Below, one piece after another: positions 8,230 to 14,127 of a DNA stretch of 58,934 nt (its first letter is position 1; every line of letters begins with the position of its first letter). The notes under the pieces are model-generated. The model searched no databases. It was not told the DNA's origin and saw nothing but the letters and a program-made list of their open reading frames with translations. A program made the position numbers and the translations under genes. The DNA is taken from contig JBMFMB010000009.1 of assembly GCA_049970895.1 (NCBI GenBank), positions 1,010 to 59,943 on the forward strand, read 5' to 3'. Source of the stretch: Candidatus Bathyarchaeia archaeon. GTDB taxonomy: Archaea; Thermoproteota; Bathyarchaeia; Bathyarchaeales; Bathycorpusculaceae.

Positions 8230-8335
8230 TGCGGCCGCCGGGATTCGAACCCGGGATCGCAGGCTTGGAAGGCCTCCACCGTTGCAAGCAGTTTCTTGCA
8301 GCGTCTGTGTCCTAACCAGACTAGACGACGGCCGC
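8230..8335 (-). tRNA. tRNA-Gly(TCC) with 31-nt intron at position 29/30 (8274-8304)
   Basis: Acceptor GCGGCCG/CGGCCGC; T-arm CCGGG TTCGAAT CCCGG; anticodon stem CAG^GC/GCCTG with loop CTTCCAA; CCA not encoded. Confidence 0.93.
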
Positions 8336-11456: not shown

Positions 11457-11890
11457 ATGCAAGGGGAAACCAGAGAACCATCAGGGCTTAAATGCCCCCA
11501 ATGCAAATCAACAAAAGTTTGCAGAGATGGAATACGCTACCTAACAAACGGAAAGACTAAATTGAAAGGCAGATTTTAAATTCGCCAAACACCCATACTA
11601 ATTATTGCCAAGGGAGCTGTGAAGCCTTCTCAGGTGGAGCGTCCACCAGCAGGCGAAAGCCACAATGGAATACATTGCACAAAAAACATTAAATGGGTCC
11701 AGCAACTCTTGGGGCATAAGAGACTTGAAAATACAGACCTCTACACCCAACTTATAAATTTTGAAAGTGACGAATGGCATGTGGCAACAGCGAAAAACCT
11801 TGAAGAGGAAAAGAAACTCATTGAGGCGGGATTTGAATTTGTCCGCTACAGCGAAAAAACGAAGTGGCTATATACCGCAAAAGAAAATAA
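11457..11890 (+). pseudogene. Internally deleted, frameshifted tyrosine integrase
   Basis: N-terminal CPQCKSTKVCRDGIRY; then KATMEY /shift/ HCTKNIKWVQQLLGHKRLENTDLYTQL...LIEAGFEFV /shift/ EVAIYRKRK*. Confidence 0.8.
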
Positions 11891-11913
11891 AATCTCCAGT
11901 AGTATAGTTCAGG

Positions 11914-11991
11914 GCTCCGGTAGTATAGTCCGGTCAAGTATAGCGGCCTCTCGAGCCGCGGACCCGGGTTCAAATCCCGGCCGGAGCACCA
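11914..11991 (+). tRNA. tRNA-Glu(CTC)
   Basis: Acceptor GCTCCGG/CCGGAGC; anticodon arm GCGGC CTCTCGA GCCGC; GGTTCAAATCC; encoded CCA. Confidence 0.95.
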
Positions 11992-12117
11992 TACACGCTT
12001 TTATACACAATCCGACACTATTTAGCCTCAAGCATATAAAAAGTAACCATAAATCAGCAGATAAACCGACAGATTTAAATAGTACTTTTGACGGAAATGT
12101 CTCTGTGGATGCAGCGT

Positions 12118-13575
12118 ATGTCGGAAAGGGACTTTAAGAAACCCGAGACTCGTGAAGATTTCATCAGAATTTTGACGGATGCTGCTAGGAAGGAGGCTGA
12201 GGCTCGTAGTCTTTTGTCGGGTAAGCCTTCCAAGCCTACGGTTTCTGGCACAGCTAAGATTTTGGGGATTCATAGGGACACTCTTTATTCTTGGCTTAGG
12301 GAATTTAATGTCGACTTTGAAGAGGTTACATCCGGCATTTCTGCTGTTGAGGTGTCGGGTATTCGACAGCCTTCTAAGGGATATACGTACCTTATCGGGG
12401 AGGCTCTTGTCGGAGAGGGGAATGAGGTTGCTCACATAGACCTTTTGATAGGCGACAAGGAAGGCCCTGTCGGAGAGGCTTTTGCAAATGGTTTGGCTCA
12501 TCTTTCTATGGGGCATACACCACTTTTGGCTGTTATTAGGCCTAATCTTCCGCCCAAGCCTCACACTCTGCTTGTGCCTAAGGTAACTGTGAGGAACTTT
12601 GAGGATGCCAACAAGGTTTTCGGTCCGGCTCAGGCGGCTGTTGCGAAGGCTATCGCCGATGCTGTTGAGGAGGGCATAATTCCAAAGGATAAGGTTGACG
12701 ATTGGGTTGTGGTTTGCAGCGTCTTCGTTCACCCGAAGGCAAGTGATTATAGGAAGATATACCATTACAATTACAGTGCAACAAAATTGGCTTTGAAAAG
12801 GGCTATGGCGAGGTATCCATCGCTTGAGAAGGTTTTCTACGACAAGGATAGGGCTAAGCATCCAATGCTGGGTTATAGGGTGCCACGTCTCTGGAGACCG
12901 CCGTATTTGCAAATTTCGCTTGACATCCCCGACTTGGAGCGGACTAAGAAGATTATCATGCAGATTCCGAGGAGCGACAGGATAATTTTGGAGGCTGGGA
13001 CGCCCCTTATAAAGCGTTATGGCACCAAAGTGATAAGCGAGCTCAGAGAGGTTGCCAAAGACATATTCTTTATGGCGGATTTGAAAACCCTTGACGTCGG
13101 AAAGGTGGAGGTGGACATTGCATATGAGGAGACGGCTGACGGCGTAATAGCCGCTGGTTTAGCGCCTACAGAAACCCTTGATGCCTTCATCTATGAGGCA
13201 AAGCGGCTTGGGATTTATGCGGTTGTTGACATGCTTAACGTTGAAGACCCACTTAAGAAACTGAAAAGCCTCAGAGACTTTCCGGATGTTGTCATAATCC
13301 ATAGGGGTATAGATGAGGAAACTGGCAAAACAATTGGGTTAGAGCTTATACAAGAGCTTAGGCAAACGTTCAAGGACAAGAAGTTCTTGATTGCCGTGGC
13401 TGGTGGCATAATCCCAGAAACCGCAAAAGAGGCTTTGGAGAAGGGTGCCGACATAATTGTTGTTGGACGTTATGTAACACAGTCAAAAGACATCGAGAGG
13501 TCTGTAAGGGAGTTCTTAGAGTTAACACCAGAAATGCGGGAAGACATAGACGTTTACAGAGTTCATGTAGAATAA
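12118..13575 (+). CDS. fae-hps: HTH-fused bifunctional formaldehyde-activating enzyme / 3-hexulose-6-phosphate synthase
   Basis: GEALVGEGNEVAHIDLLIG and FGPAQAAVAKA (Fae); LEAGTPLIK, ADLKTLDVG, IHRGID, AVAGGI, VVGR (HPS); N-terminal VSGTAKILGIHRDTLYSWL. Confidence 0.9.
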   Translation: MSERDFKKPETREDFIRILTDAARKEAEARSLLSGKPSKPTVSGTAKILGIHRDTLYSWLREFNVDFEEVTSGISAVEVSGIRQPSKGYTYLIGEALVGEGNEVAHIDLLIGDKEGPVGEAFANGLAHLSMGHTPLLAVIRPNLPPKPHTLLVPKVTVRNFEDANKVFGPAQAAVAKAIADAVEEGIIPKDKVDDWVVVCSVFVHPKASDYRKIYHYNYSATKLALKRAMARYPSLEKVFYDKDRAKHPMLGYRVPRLWRPPYLQISLDIPDLERTKKIIMQIPRSDRIILEAGTPLIKRYGTKVISELREVAKDIFFMADLKTLDVGKVEVDIAYEETADGVIAAGLAPTETLDAFIYEAKRLGIYAVVDMLNVEDPLKKLKSLRDFPDVVIIHRGIDEETGKTIGLELIQELRQTFKDKKFLIAVAGGIIPETAKEALEKGADIIVVGRYVTQSKDIERSVREFLELTPEMREDIDVYRVHVE

Positions 13576-13600
13576 AAGTGCCTTTGCCTAAAAGTATAGT

Positions 13601-14025
13601 TTAAAAGAAACGTAAGCGAGGAGGAAAATTACACCGCCAATAGGAACACATAGATGAAACCCAAGTTTGAGCAGTAAGTGGACCTATAAAGGCGCCTCCA
13701 GCACTTCCTAAACTTACAAGCACATCAAATAAGCCTGCTTCCCTGCTGGTATAAGTTCCATTGAAAGGAACGCACGTAAACATGGTATAAGGCGTAAGCA
13801 AAGCCCATCAAGGTTAAAATTAACGCGGCTAGAGTTATTGTGTAAACGTTTAAAATGGTAAAGACTGCTAAAAGAAAGACAAGGAAGCCCCTTGCTGAAA
13901 CGATTTTTGTAGGTGCATTTTCTCTTCTTCTTGTTCGAGCTTGTTTCTCGCCATGAAATATCCGATGGCGTTAGCTGCTGAGTTGAAACGTAGATGGCGT
14001 AAACTATGCTTGTGAGTAAGCACAA
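13601..14025 (-). pseudogene. Degraded C-terminal remnant of an MFS transporter
   Basis: Fragments in shifting frames: LSMELIPAGKQ / AGLFDVLVSLGSAGGAFIGPLTAQ. Confidence 0.55.
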
Positions 14026-14127
14026 ATCTTTGAGGAAAAGATGGGTAAACTATATGCGTTCAAGTTTTCACACAACCCTTAATAGTTAGAGATTCAAATT
14101 CATAATCTCCGCTGGAGAGATAAACTG

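What the first reader, a model, noticed from the sequence alone, without database searches (positions are those of the whole stretch)
12118..13575. DNA-binding HTH fused to Fae-Hps: candidate formaldehyde-sensing trigger enzyme
Seen: about 85 extra N-terminal residues with a clear HTH (TVSGTAKILGIHRDTLYSWLREF) in frame with complete Fae and HPS domains. Known: the Fae-Hps fusion of methanogens links RuMP formaldehyde release to H4MPT and begins at the Fae domain. Inference: an oligomeric enzyme that also binds DNA could couple C1 flux to transcription. I do not know of a description of this three-domain form.
Basis: partly seen in the sequence, partly recalled or inferred. Interest (0 to 1): 0.7.

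Follow-up and report, generated by a model that had tools for sequence, protein, structure and literature searches.

The report
Self-regulating formaldehyde-handling enzyme with DNA-binding head
An archaeal sugar-and-formaldehyde enzyme carries an extra DNA-binding head, and its own promoter holds a conserved array of matching short DNA boxes, so the enzyme most likely controls its own gene.

Summary
Window 12118-13575(+) encodes a 485-aa protein: a ~70-aa helix-turn-helix (HTH) domain, a ~20-aa variable linker, then complete Fae and HPS domains. The organism is a Bathyarchaeia MAG. The start codon and N-domain are conserved in all 31 orthologues inspected, and relatives occur in 364 species genomes.

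New here: the gene's promoter carries a conserved array of CCGACA boxes. One abuts the TATA box (92 of 97 unique promoters). An inverted copy overlaps the start codon (91 of 97). A distal copy is present in 63 of 97. Box plus TATA is nearly unique to this promoter genome-wide.

Other Bathyarchaeia clades carry different DNA-binding heads on Fae-Hps, each with its own promoter boxes: a ribbon-helix-helix with GTGACAC boxes, and a second HTH with TGCGGCA boxes. The cross-tabulation is clean.

Best reading: an autoregulatory, probably self-repressing, bifunctional enzyme/regulator. Sensing of formaldehyde or any metabolite is untested. I found no description in print. It is a new variant of the "trigger enzyme" kind.

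The parts
12118..13575 (+). Complete CDS of the HTH-linker-Fae-HPS protein (485 aa plus stop)
   Evidence: Full-length orthologues at 68-95% identity in 30 relatives. More than 120 database clusters of 468-527 aa, 118 of 120 covering 100% of the query.
12118..12327 (+). N-terminal HTH-like domain (residues 1-70): helix ETREDFIRILTDAARKEAEARSLL, then KPTVSGTAKILGIHRDTLYSWLREFNVDF
   Evidence: Sub-threshold HTH matches. Weak profile matches to a phage TerS-like protein 2ao9 (E 0.021) and an NtrC-family DNA-binding domain 4l5e (E 0.11). HRDTLY.W is kept in 96 of 97 orthologues.
12328..12390 (+). Variable linker (residues 71-91)
   Evidence: Not alignable between families. Only 49% of codon differences are synonymous.
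12394..12867 (+). Fae (formaldehyde-activating enzyme) domain, residues 93-250
   Evidence: Pfam PF08714 E 6.3e-72. TIGR03126 261 bits. PDB 1y5y/1y60 E 1.4e-45.
12901..13512 (+). HPS (3-hexulose-6-phosphate synthase, OMPdecase-fold) domain, residues 262-465
   Evidence: Pfam PF00215 E 6.1e-32. PDB HPS entries 9lj9, 3f4w, 3ajx.
12012..12017 (+). Distal CCGACA box (-106 from the ATG)
   Evidence: A distal box is present in 63 of 97 unique orthologous promoters.
12066..12071 (+). Proximal CCGACA box, 2 nt upstream of the TATA box (BRE position)
   Evidence: An exact box at -48..-57 in 92 of 97 promoters.
12074..12081 (+). TATA box TTTAAATA (predicted; the transcription start is inferred near 12104)
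   Evidence: Read. A TATA-like heptamer at -38..-48 in 96 of 97 promoters. The start site is not measured.
12119..12124 (-). Inverted box (TGTCGG on the + strand) overlapping the start codon (ATG TCG Gnn)
   Evidence: Present in 91 of 97 promoters. Codon 2 is TCG in 29 of 31 orthologues although TCG is the rarest Ser codon in this genome (9.1%). Residue 3 varies among E, D and G, all with G-initial codons.
12215..12473 (-). Four further inverted boxes inside the 5' coding region (12215, 12353, 12408, 12468)
   Evidence: 7 of the window's 29 CCGACA hits lie in 12012-12473. Across 83 orthologues the N-domain/linker coding region holds 157 boxes against 23.0 +/- 4.4 in synonymous-codon shuffles. 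Positions differ between families. Their function is less certain.

Best explanation
The gene encodes a working Fae-Hps. HPS splits hexulose-6-phosphate into ribulose-5-phosphate and formaldehyde, and Fae condenses the formaldehyde with H4MPT. Its N-terminal HTH domain, on a flexible linker, recognises the short asymmetric box (W)TCCGACA. Boxes lie upstream of the core promoter, against the TATA box at the BRE position, across the start codon and in the first ~350 nt of the coding region. They are spaced by roughly whole helical turns (54 and 53 bp here). The enzyme is expected to be an oligomer, since its Fae and HPS relatives crystallise with several chains. It would therefore present several HTH heads, occupy the array and hinder TFB/TBP/RNA polymerase. 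The enzyme would thus set its own level by negative autoregulation. Shown: the architecture, its conservation, the box array and its specificity to this promoter, and the co-variation of box type with DNA-binding-domain type. Inferred: that this HTH is what binds the boxes, that the effect is repression, and that a substrate or product modulates binding.
For: (1) The domain is real and translated.
(2) The box array is conserved. In 97 unique promoters the counts are proximal 92, start-codon 91, distal 63 and TATA 96. That is 2.74 boxes per 152-nt promoter against 0.149 per 152 nt in the rest of the same loci.
(3) There is a DNA-level constraint at the start: TCG at codon 2 in 29 of 31 orthologues, with a variable third residue.
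(4) The box is not a general promoter element. CCGACA followed by TATA occurs 3 times in the 1.34-Mb genome. In five near-complete relatives there are 8 pattern hits; the two G428 hits at the fae-hps promoter overlap, leaving 7 distinct sites, 5 of them (one per genome) at the fae-hps promoter and 2 elsewhere. In 3 genomes the fae-hps site is the only hit. Reversed-pattern controls give 4-10 per genome, both strands.
(5) Box type co-varies with domain type. CCGACA/TGTCGG occurs in 95 of 97 HTH-class and 0 of 11 RHH-class promoters. GTGACAC/GTGTCAC occurs in 0 of 97 and 10 of 11. A third HTH class (2 genomes) has TGCGGCA/TGCCGCA boxes flanking the TATA box.
(6) Natural variants fit. The paralogue L032 has HRD changed to QLD in the putative recognition helix and has no boxes. 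L131 has lost the HTH, and its boxes are degenerate (CCGGCA, ATGTCAGG).
(7) The upstream neighbour (tRNA-Glu) is not conserved beyond the closest relatives, yet the boxes are.
(8) The RHH heads match ParD/CopG DNA-binding proteins (profile E 9e-5).
Against: No experiment or structure shows DNA binding. The HTH reaches no Pfam or NCBIfam gathering threshold. Another regulator confined to the same clades could bind the boxes. Orthologous promoters are related by descent, so the counts overstate independence. Only part of the in-CDS boxes are conserved (13 of 30 and 6 of 30 at two positions). In the RHH class the boxes lie 15-33 nt upstream of the TATA box rather than on it, which fits activation as well as repression. 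No transcription start site or expression data were obtained. No other target genes were found, so a role in wider C1 regulation has no support.
Confidence: 0.66

Rival explanations
1. Metabolite-sensing trigger enzyme. DNA binding by the fused head is switched by formaldehyde, H4MPT/methylene-H4MPT, hexulose-6-P or ribulose-5-P, so that transcription follows C1/pentose flux. This refines the best explanation rather than excluding it.
For: Fusion of a DNA-binding domain to this one enzyme arose in three forms on the enzyme tree, which suggests selection for coupling enzyme state to expression. The precedent RbkR shows substrate and product control of DNA binding in Archaea (abstract of PMC5397151).
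Against: Nothing here bears on ligand dependence. Plain concentration-dependent autorepression explains all observations. No regulon beyond the gene itself was found.
Confidence: 0.3
2. The boxes are bound by a different, separately encoded regulator. The N-terminal domain serves another purpose, such as oligomer assembly, tethering to the nucleoid or a partner protein.
For: The HTH is below family thresholds. There is no direct binding evidence.
Against: It would require three unrelated trans-acting regulators to track three unrelated fused heads clade by clade. It would also require the boxes to decay exactly where the head is lost or mutated (L131, L032). No conserved neighbouring regulator gene exists.
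Confidence: 0.1
3. The fused head activates rather than represses its own promoter, or mainly regulates distant genes.
For: Distal boxes at -82 to -126, and RHH-class boxes upstream of the TATA box, are at positions used by archaeal activators (positional rule recalled).
Against: In the HTH class one box occupies the BRE position and another covers the start codon. In the third class a box lies just downstream of the TATA box. Box plus TATA is almost unique to this promoter.
Confidence: 0.12
4. The extension is an annotation artefact: translation starts at the Fae domain and the upstream frame is open by chance.
For: Canonical Fae-Hps (NF009833) starts at Fae.
Against: Aligned start codons in 31 of 31 orthologues, with stops directly upstream in several. 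Invariant residues and mostly synonymous change. No conserved start codon near the Fae boundary.
Confidence: 0.02

Closest known systems
Bifunctional Fae/Hps of methanogens (NCBIfam NF009833; Goenrich et al. 2005, seen only as reference 39 in PMC8407382, content recalled)
   Same: Same two catalytic domains in the same order. Equivalog score 579.5 against a cut-off of 274. Presumed role in the reverse RuMP pathway for pentose synthesis, as assumed for Bathyarchaeia (passages of PMC8407382).
   Different: The canonical protein begins at Fae (392-position profile). This one has a 90-residue HTH and linker in front, plus a matching operator array.
RbkR, archaeal riboflavin kinase fused to a winged-HTH regulator (PMC5397151, abstract read)
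   Same: A metabolic enzyme and a DNA-binding domain in one archaeal polypeptide. Lineage-variable operators were found by comparative genomics. The gene regulates itself.
   Different: Unrelated enzyme and DNA-binding fold. RbkR controls a multi-gene regulon and its ligand control is proven. Here only self-targeting is seen and nothing is proven.
PutA, BirA and NadR, the bacterial 'trigger enzymes' (recalled)
   Same: An enzyme with an N-terminal RHH (PutA) or HTH (BirA, NadR) that represses its own pathway genes. The RHH-Fae-Hps relatives parallel PutA's layout.
   Different: No homology. Bacterial promoters. Palindromic operators bound by dimers, against an array of single asymmetric boxes here.
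Small terminase (TerS) / GP3_package and Fis/NtrC-type HTH domains
   Same: Nearest sequence neighbours of the N-domain. GP3_package matches 19 of 22 members and terminase small-subunit PHROGs match up to 7 of 22. Weak matches to 2ao9 and 4l5e. P0173 and P0177 share PT..G.A..L.(I/V)HRDT(L/V)YAW. TerS rings also present many HTH heads to repeated sites (recalled).
   Different: All matches are below curated thresholds. There is no terminase core and the context is cellular metabolism.
HxlR, the formaldehyde-responsive activator of the Bacillus subtilis hxlAB RuMP operon (recalled)
   Same: Transcriptional control of an HPS gene.
   Different: A separate regulator protein of another family. Bacterial, and used for detoxification.

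Membership tests
Bifunctional Fae/Hps (NCBIfam NF009833 / PRK13307) | Whole-protein score above the curated cut-off, covering the model end to end | tested here: met
   579.5 bits against 274; model positions 2-390 of 392 on residues 91-484.
Bifunctional Fae/Hps (NCBIfam NF009833 / PRK13307) | Fae domain followed by an HPS (OMPdecase-fold) domain | tested here: met
   PF08714 at 93-250 and PF00215 at 262-465. PDB Fae 1y5y and HPS 9lj9/3f4w/3ajx.
Bifunctional Fae/Hps (NCBIfam NF009833 / PRK13307) | Protein begins at the Fae domain (two-domain architecture) | tested here: not met
   90 conserved residues precede Fae. It is a member with an added domain.
Bifunctional Fae/Hps (NCBIfam NF009833 / PRK13307) | Catalytic activities (H4MPT hydro-lyase; hexulose-6-P synthase/lyase) | not testable with these tools
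   Only sequence conservation; 77% mean column identity across 21 orthologues.
Curated HTH families (Pfam HTH_28, HTH_23, HTH_29, HTH_8, GP3_package; NCBIfam) | Score at or above the gathering threshold | tested here: not met
   Best for the window: 22.7 bits against 25 (HTH_28), 19.4-20.9 against 29.4 (GP3_package), 15.7-16.1 against 22 (HTH_8). No NCBIfam match is significant.
Curated HTH families (Pfam HTH_28, HTH_23, HTH_29, HTH_8, GP3_package; NCBIfam) | Helix-turn-helix fold with a recognition helix | tested here: inconclusive
   Recurrent sub-threshold matches on residues 40-65 in 18-21 of 22 members. No structure model could be made.
Trigger enzymes / bifunctional enzyme-regulators (functional class) | Enzyme and DNA-binding domain in one polypeptide | tested here: met
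   on the condition that the HTH is a DNA-binding domain.
Trigger enzymes / bifunctional enzyme-regulators (functional class) | Specific operator sites at regulated promoters | tested here: met
   Conserved CCGACA array at its own promoter. Box type co-varies with head type. This is comparative inference, not binding data.
Trigger enzymes / bifunctional enzyme-regulators (functional class) | DNA binding controlled by the enzyme's substrate or product state | not testable with these tools
   No data.
Ribbon-helix-helix (CopG/Arc/MetJ, ParD) - applies to the heads of Fae-Hps in other Bathyarchaeia clades, not to the window | Significant profile match to solved RHH proteins | tested here: met
   Profile of 11 heads against PDB: ParD 3kxe E 9e-5, 7b22 E 2.2e-4, 8c24 E 1e-3. 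Single sequences are near Pfam thresholds.

The most novel reading that the evidence does not exclude
A whole enzyme particle acts as a multivalent, flux-sensing repressor. The oligomeric Fae-Hps uses several flexible HTH heads to occupy seven phased boxes over about 460 bp of its own promoter and 5' coding region. It releases them when engaged with hexulose-6-P, formaldehyde or H4MPT. The same solution was reached three times in Bathyarchaeia with unrelated DNA-binding heads, which would mark the formaldehyde-releasing step of pentose synthesis as a control point. It would also give the first formaldehyde/C1-flux-responsive transcription switch in Archaea.
Probability: 0.22. Interest if true: 0.8.

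Novelty: new variant of a known kind. Interest (0 to 1): 0.66.

Why it matters
Bathyarchaeia are abundant and uncultured, and almost nothing is known about their gene regulation. This finding gives a concrete protein-operator pair that can be tested entirely in vitro. It has built-in natural controls: three head classes with three box types, a paralogue with a mutated recognition helix and no boxes, and a natural head deletion. It extends the short list of archaeal enzyme-regulator fusions to central C1/pentose metabolism. It suggests that the level of the formaldehyde-generating enzyme is tightly self-limited. It also shows that database annotation ([quoted passage not shown]) hides a third, regulatory domain in hundreds of genomes.

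Tried and rejected
1. "Standalone" N-domain. A hit in G025 with an 89-aa open frame looked like a free-standing HTH, but the contig ends 20 nt after the match. It is a truncated fusion, and I rejected it.

2. General promoter element. I considered that CCGACA next to the TATA box was simply this lineage's BRE. I rejected this because only 3 such composites exist in the genome, and 7-mers before TTTA[AT]ATA show no common word.

3. Regulon. A PWM/box scan of the genome found 430 boxes, 45 of them non-coding, with roughly 14% of the genome non-coding by rough ORF calls. The top non-coding sites are single and lack the array. No boxes precede phi (C1:106903-107475) or the DHDPS-Fae gene. Candidates not pursued: a box with a TATA-like run before an aldehyde:ferredoxin-oxidoreductase-like ORF (C6:33542) and before a radical-SAM-like ORF (C2:74043).

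4. In-CDS boxes at 12408 and 12468. These are conserved in only 13 of 30 and 6 of 30 orthologues, so I do not count them in the core architecture. The overall 5'-CDS enrichment does stand.

5. Wider homology of the N-domain. A profile search of 1.84 billion representatives gave 101 hits at E <= 1e-3. Of the 12 hits whose sequences I fetched, four (P0122, P0124, P0129, P0131) were fragments of the same fusion, five (P0135, P0136, P0146, P0150, P0151) were tandem-HTH repeat proteins, two (P0173, P0177) were TerS-like and P0155 was another multi-HTH protein. No full-length 485-aa representative was listed, presumably because of 50% clustering with plain Fae-Hps.

6. RNA evidence. No RNA holder was listed.

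7. Complex prediction. No verdict, because the job was never accepted.

8. Literature. Searches found no description of a DNA-binding domain on Fae-Hps. One search (CCGACA) returned only noise. Supplements were closed, so Data Set S2 of PMC8407382 could not be checked. It holds gene tables and is unlikely to describe domains.

9. Tree. The careful treekit search did not finish; the quick IQ-TREE result was used.

10. Rows dropped.
- 1 of 80 loci (L080) had too little upstream sequence.
- 110 promoters collapsed to 97 unique.
- 91 of 97 had a full CDS.
- 83 of 97 were used; the rest were truncated or had a stop in the first 1440 nt.
- The 20 loci were chosen by open-frame length, not at random.
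Full report
**What is there**

An ORF runs 12088..13575(+), and the ATG at 12118 gives a 485-aa protein. Pfam places Fae at residues 93-250 (E 6.3e-72) and the OMPdecase/HUMPS fold at 262-465 (E 6.1e-32). The NCBIfam equivalog for the bifunctional Fae/Hps enzyme (NF009833, 392 positions) aligns end to end with residues 91-484, at 579.5 bits against a cut-off of 274.

Residues 40-65 give only sub-threshold HTH matches (HTH_28, HTH_23, HTH_29, GP3_package, HTH_8). These matches recur in 18-21 of 22 orthologues, and HTH_8 in 8 of 22. Terminase small-subunit PHROGs match up to 7 of 22. A profile search of the PDB gives only weak matches: a TerS-like phage protein (2ao9, E 0.021) and an NtrC-family DNA-binding domain (4l5e, E 0.11). 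The head is therefore an HTH-like domain that belongs to no curated family. The record titles of related loci name the organisms as Candidatus Bathyarchaeia/Bathyarchaeota MAGs.

**Is the extension real?**

Yes. The best 120 database clusters are 468-527 aa long; 118 of them cover 100% of the query (two cover 99% and 96%), at 77-95% identity. Where a source names them, the name is just the bifunctional enzyme. Full-length matches occur in 30 of 40 relatives' genomes, at 68-95% identity.

In 31 orthologous loci an ATG or GTG aligns with 12118, and several have a stop codon immediately upstream. The N-terminus reads MS(E/D/G)..KKPETREEF in nearly all. Fourteen residues are invariant across 22 heads that are 43-92% identical to the window's head. 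Among close relatives, synonymous changes make up 68% of codon differences in the head, 49% in the linker and 89% in the enzyme part. There is no conserved start codon near the Fae boundary.

The head is confined to part of the class. A whole-genome search of 401 genomes of the phylum found it in families f1 (24 of 25), f6 (4 of 4), f7 (6 of 6), f2 (1 of 1) and f15 (1 of 2). It always lay in a 477-612-aa open frame. The one apparent free-standing copy is cut by a contig end. In the species-level genome collection, 364 stretches encode a relative.

**The promoter**

When I aligned the upstream regions by eye, I saw a repeated CCGACA word. In the window it lies at these places:
- 12012-12017 (+).
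- 12066-12071 (+), two bases before TTTAAATA at 12074-12081.
- 12119-12124, inverted as TGTCGG, overlapping the start codon.

The spacings are 54 and 53 bp, about five helical turns.

Across 97 unique orthologous promoters (110 loci before removing duplicates) the counts are as follows:
- An exact proximal box at -48..-57 in 92.
- The start-codon box in 91.
- A distal box in 63: direct near -105 in family f1, inverted near -84 and -125 in f6, f7 and f2.
- A TATA-like heptamer in 96.

That is 2.74 boxes per 152 nt, against 0.149 per 152 nt in the rest of the same loci.

The start-codon box is held at the DNA level. Codon 2 is TCG in 29 of 31 orthologues, although TCG is the rarest serine codon in this genome (9.1%). 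Residue 3 varies among E, D and G, whose codons all begin with G.

The box is not a general promoter element. CCGACA followed by a TATA-like run occurs 3 times in the 1.34-Mb genome. In five near-complete relatives the same pattern gives 8 hits, two of them overlapping at the G428 fae-hps promoter, so 7 distinct sites. One site per genome is at the fae-hps promoter, and in three genomes it is the only hit. Reversed-pattern controls give 4-10 per genome on both strands together. The upstream neighbour, tRNA-Glu (11914-11991), is shared only with the closest relative examined, while the boxes persist.

**More boxes inside the gene**

Seven of the window's 29 CCGACA hits lie within 12012-12473. 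The two upstream boxes are on the + strand. The five from the start codon onward are on the - strand, so the two groups face each other across the core promoter.

In 83 orthologues the region coding for the head and linker holds 157 boxes, against 23.0 +/- 4.4 (maximum 33) in 200 synonymous-codon shuffles. The Fae region holds 67 against 14.6, and the HPS region 57 against 30.5. The positions differ between families, which argues against simple inheritance. But the sequences are related, and two of the window's internal boxes are kept in only 13 and 6 of 30 orthologues. I treat this as a real enrichment of uncertain function.

**The decisive comparison**

Fae-Hps is widespread in the class: 76 of 151 sampled genomes have a match over the cut-off. 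I fetched 20 further loci, chosen by open-frame length. They fell into four groups:
- Eleven carry a different head, M..EKGL.RAPGRIT.EQY.FLE..V..GRF.S.SEAVRAAI. Its profile matches ParD/CopG ribbon-helix-helix proteins (3kxe E 9e-5, 7b22 E 2.2e-4).
- One, plus a second found later, carries yet another HTH.
- One has lost the head, keeping MSGTEVKKPENR joined to Fae.
- Seven start at Fae.

The RHH form occurs in 40 of 301 sampled genomes (f73 30 of 71, f19 5 of 6, and others). It occurs in none of 66 genomes of f1, f6 and f7.

Their promoters carry other words. Ten of the 11 RHH-class promoters have GTGACAC-type boxes, paired about 11-12 bp apart just upstream of the TATA box. Seven of the 11 also have a further copy about 51 bp upstream of that pair. 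The eleventh has a different palindrome. The third class has TGCCGCA/TGCGGCA copies flanking the TATA box in both genomes.

The cross-tabulation is clean:

| Box type | HTH-class promoters | RHH-class promoters |
|---|---|---|
| CCGACA/TGTCGG | 95 of 97 | 0 of 11 |
| GTGACAC/GTGTCAC | 0 of 97 | 10 of 11 |

On a quick maximum-likelihood tree of the enzyme part alone, each head class needs a single change. The HTH clade has SH-aLRT 91, the RHH group 78 and the third class 97. The headless forms fall outside (the careful search did not finish).

Two natural variants nest within the HTH clade:
- The paralogue L032 has HRDTLY changed to QLDTLY, the only such change among 97, and has no boxes at all.
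- L131 has lost its head, and its boxes are degenerate.

**Mechanism**

The simplest account is that each fused head binds the boxes of its own gene. In the window's class one box sits where TFB contacts DNA (the BRE position; rule recalled). Another covers the start codon, about +15 to +21 from a transcription start that I infer near 12104 from the TATA position (not measured). In the third class a box lies just downstream of the TATA box. These positions favour repression.

The box is short and asymmetric, which fits one HTH per box. The enzyme's relatives crystallise with several chains: Fae 1y5y/1y60 has 10 chains in 2 entries, and there are several HPS entries. That Fae is a pentamer is recalled. 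A particle with several heads on about 20-residue linkers could therefore bridge boxes half a hundred base pairs apart.

The enzyme makes formaldehyde from hexulose-6-P and traps it on H4MPT. Bathyarchaeia are thought to use this reverse RuMP route for pentoses (passages of PMC8407382). The genome has a phi gene. Self-limitation of such an enzyme is plausible. Whether any substrate or product changes DNA binding is unknown.

**Limits**

- No binding, structure, transcription start or expression data could be obtained.
- The promoters compared are related by descent.
- In the RHH class the box position would also fit activation.
- No target other than the gene itself was found, so a wider C1 regulon is unsupported.

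**Comparison and novelty**

The protein is a member of the Fae/Hps equivalog with an added domain. Functionally it resembles enzyme-regulator fusions. These include archaeal RbkR (abstract of PMC5397151) and bacterial PutA, BirA and NadR (recalled). It is unrelated to them in sequence.

Seven full-text searches found no description of a DNA-binding head on Fae-Hps. The Bathyarchaeia comparative-genomics paper mentions only the pathway. Supplements could not be opened. I rate it a new variant of a known kind. Its interest comes mainly from the three independent head captures with matched operators, which make the hypothesis directly testable in vitro.

Noticed in passing
G000 contig C5, locus L002:487-1989 (+): The genome's second Fae domain is fused to the C-terminus of a DHDPS/DapA-family aldolase-like domain (500 aa; PF00701 at 12-299, PF08714 at 339-496). 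In at least 15 of the relatives' genomes a second Fae match lies in an open frame of ~490-540 aa, consistent with the same fusion (not domain-checked there). It has no CCGACA boxes upstream.
   Followed up: partly
L115-L125, L133 (other Bathyarchaeia families): Fae-Hps with an N-terminal ribbon-helix-helix head and GTGACAC-type promoter boxes. L124 (family f81) instead has the palindrome GTGGTAC-N4-GTACCAC upstream of its TATA box.
   Followed up: partly
L119/L143 and L144 (family f13): A third Fae-Hps head: an HTH with an ECF-sigma/region-4-like match (E 9.6e-5). TGCCGCA/TGCGGCA copies flank the TATA box in both genomes.
   Followed up: partly
L032 (G225:C94) and L131 (G267:C5): Natural variants within one genus. 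One is a second gene copy whose head reads QLDTLY instead of HRDTLY and whose promoter has no boxes. The other is a copy whose head is deleted (MSGTEVKKPENR joined to Fae) and whose boxes are degenerate.
   Followed up: partly
P0135, P0136, P0146, P0150, P0151 (database proteins): Proteins of 314-641 aa built from 6-9 tandem copies of an HTH unit similar to this head (...EIAKKLGI...TLY.YL...NV...). Their origin and function are unknown.
   Followed up: no
window 11619-11897 (+), just upstream of tRNA-Glu 11914-11991: An open frame containing LLGHKRLENTDLYT, which recalls the C-terminal motif of tyrosine recombinases. This hints at an integrase fragment beside a tRNA gene. Pfam gave no match at E <= 0.01, so it is unconfirmed.
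   Followed up: partly
window 8230-8335 (-): A tRNA match spanning 106 nt (Rfam 43.8 bits), longer than a plain tRNA and so possibly intron-containing.
   Followed up: no
L107 (OY970176.1, complete chromosome): The orthologue's reading frame from the conserved start is only 138 aa, so it may be frameshifted or a pseudogene, although the promoter boxes are intact.
   Followed up: no
window 13576-14127: About 550 nt lie between the Fae-Hps stop and the S6e gene with no long + strand ORF and no Rfam match. The downstream order S6e then aIF2-gamma is conserved in families f1 and f7.
   Followed up: no
G000 C6:33542 and C2:74043: Single CCGACA boxes next to TATA-like runs lie upstream of an aldehyde:ferredoxin-oxidoreductase-like ORF and a radical-SAM-like ORF. 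These are possible extra targets, not checked in other genomes.
   Followed up: no
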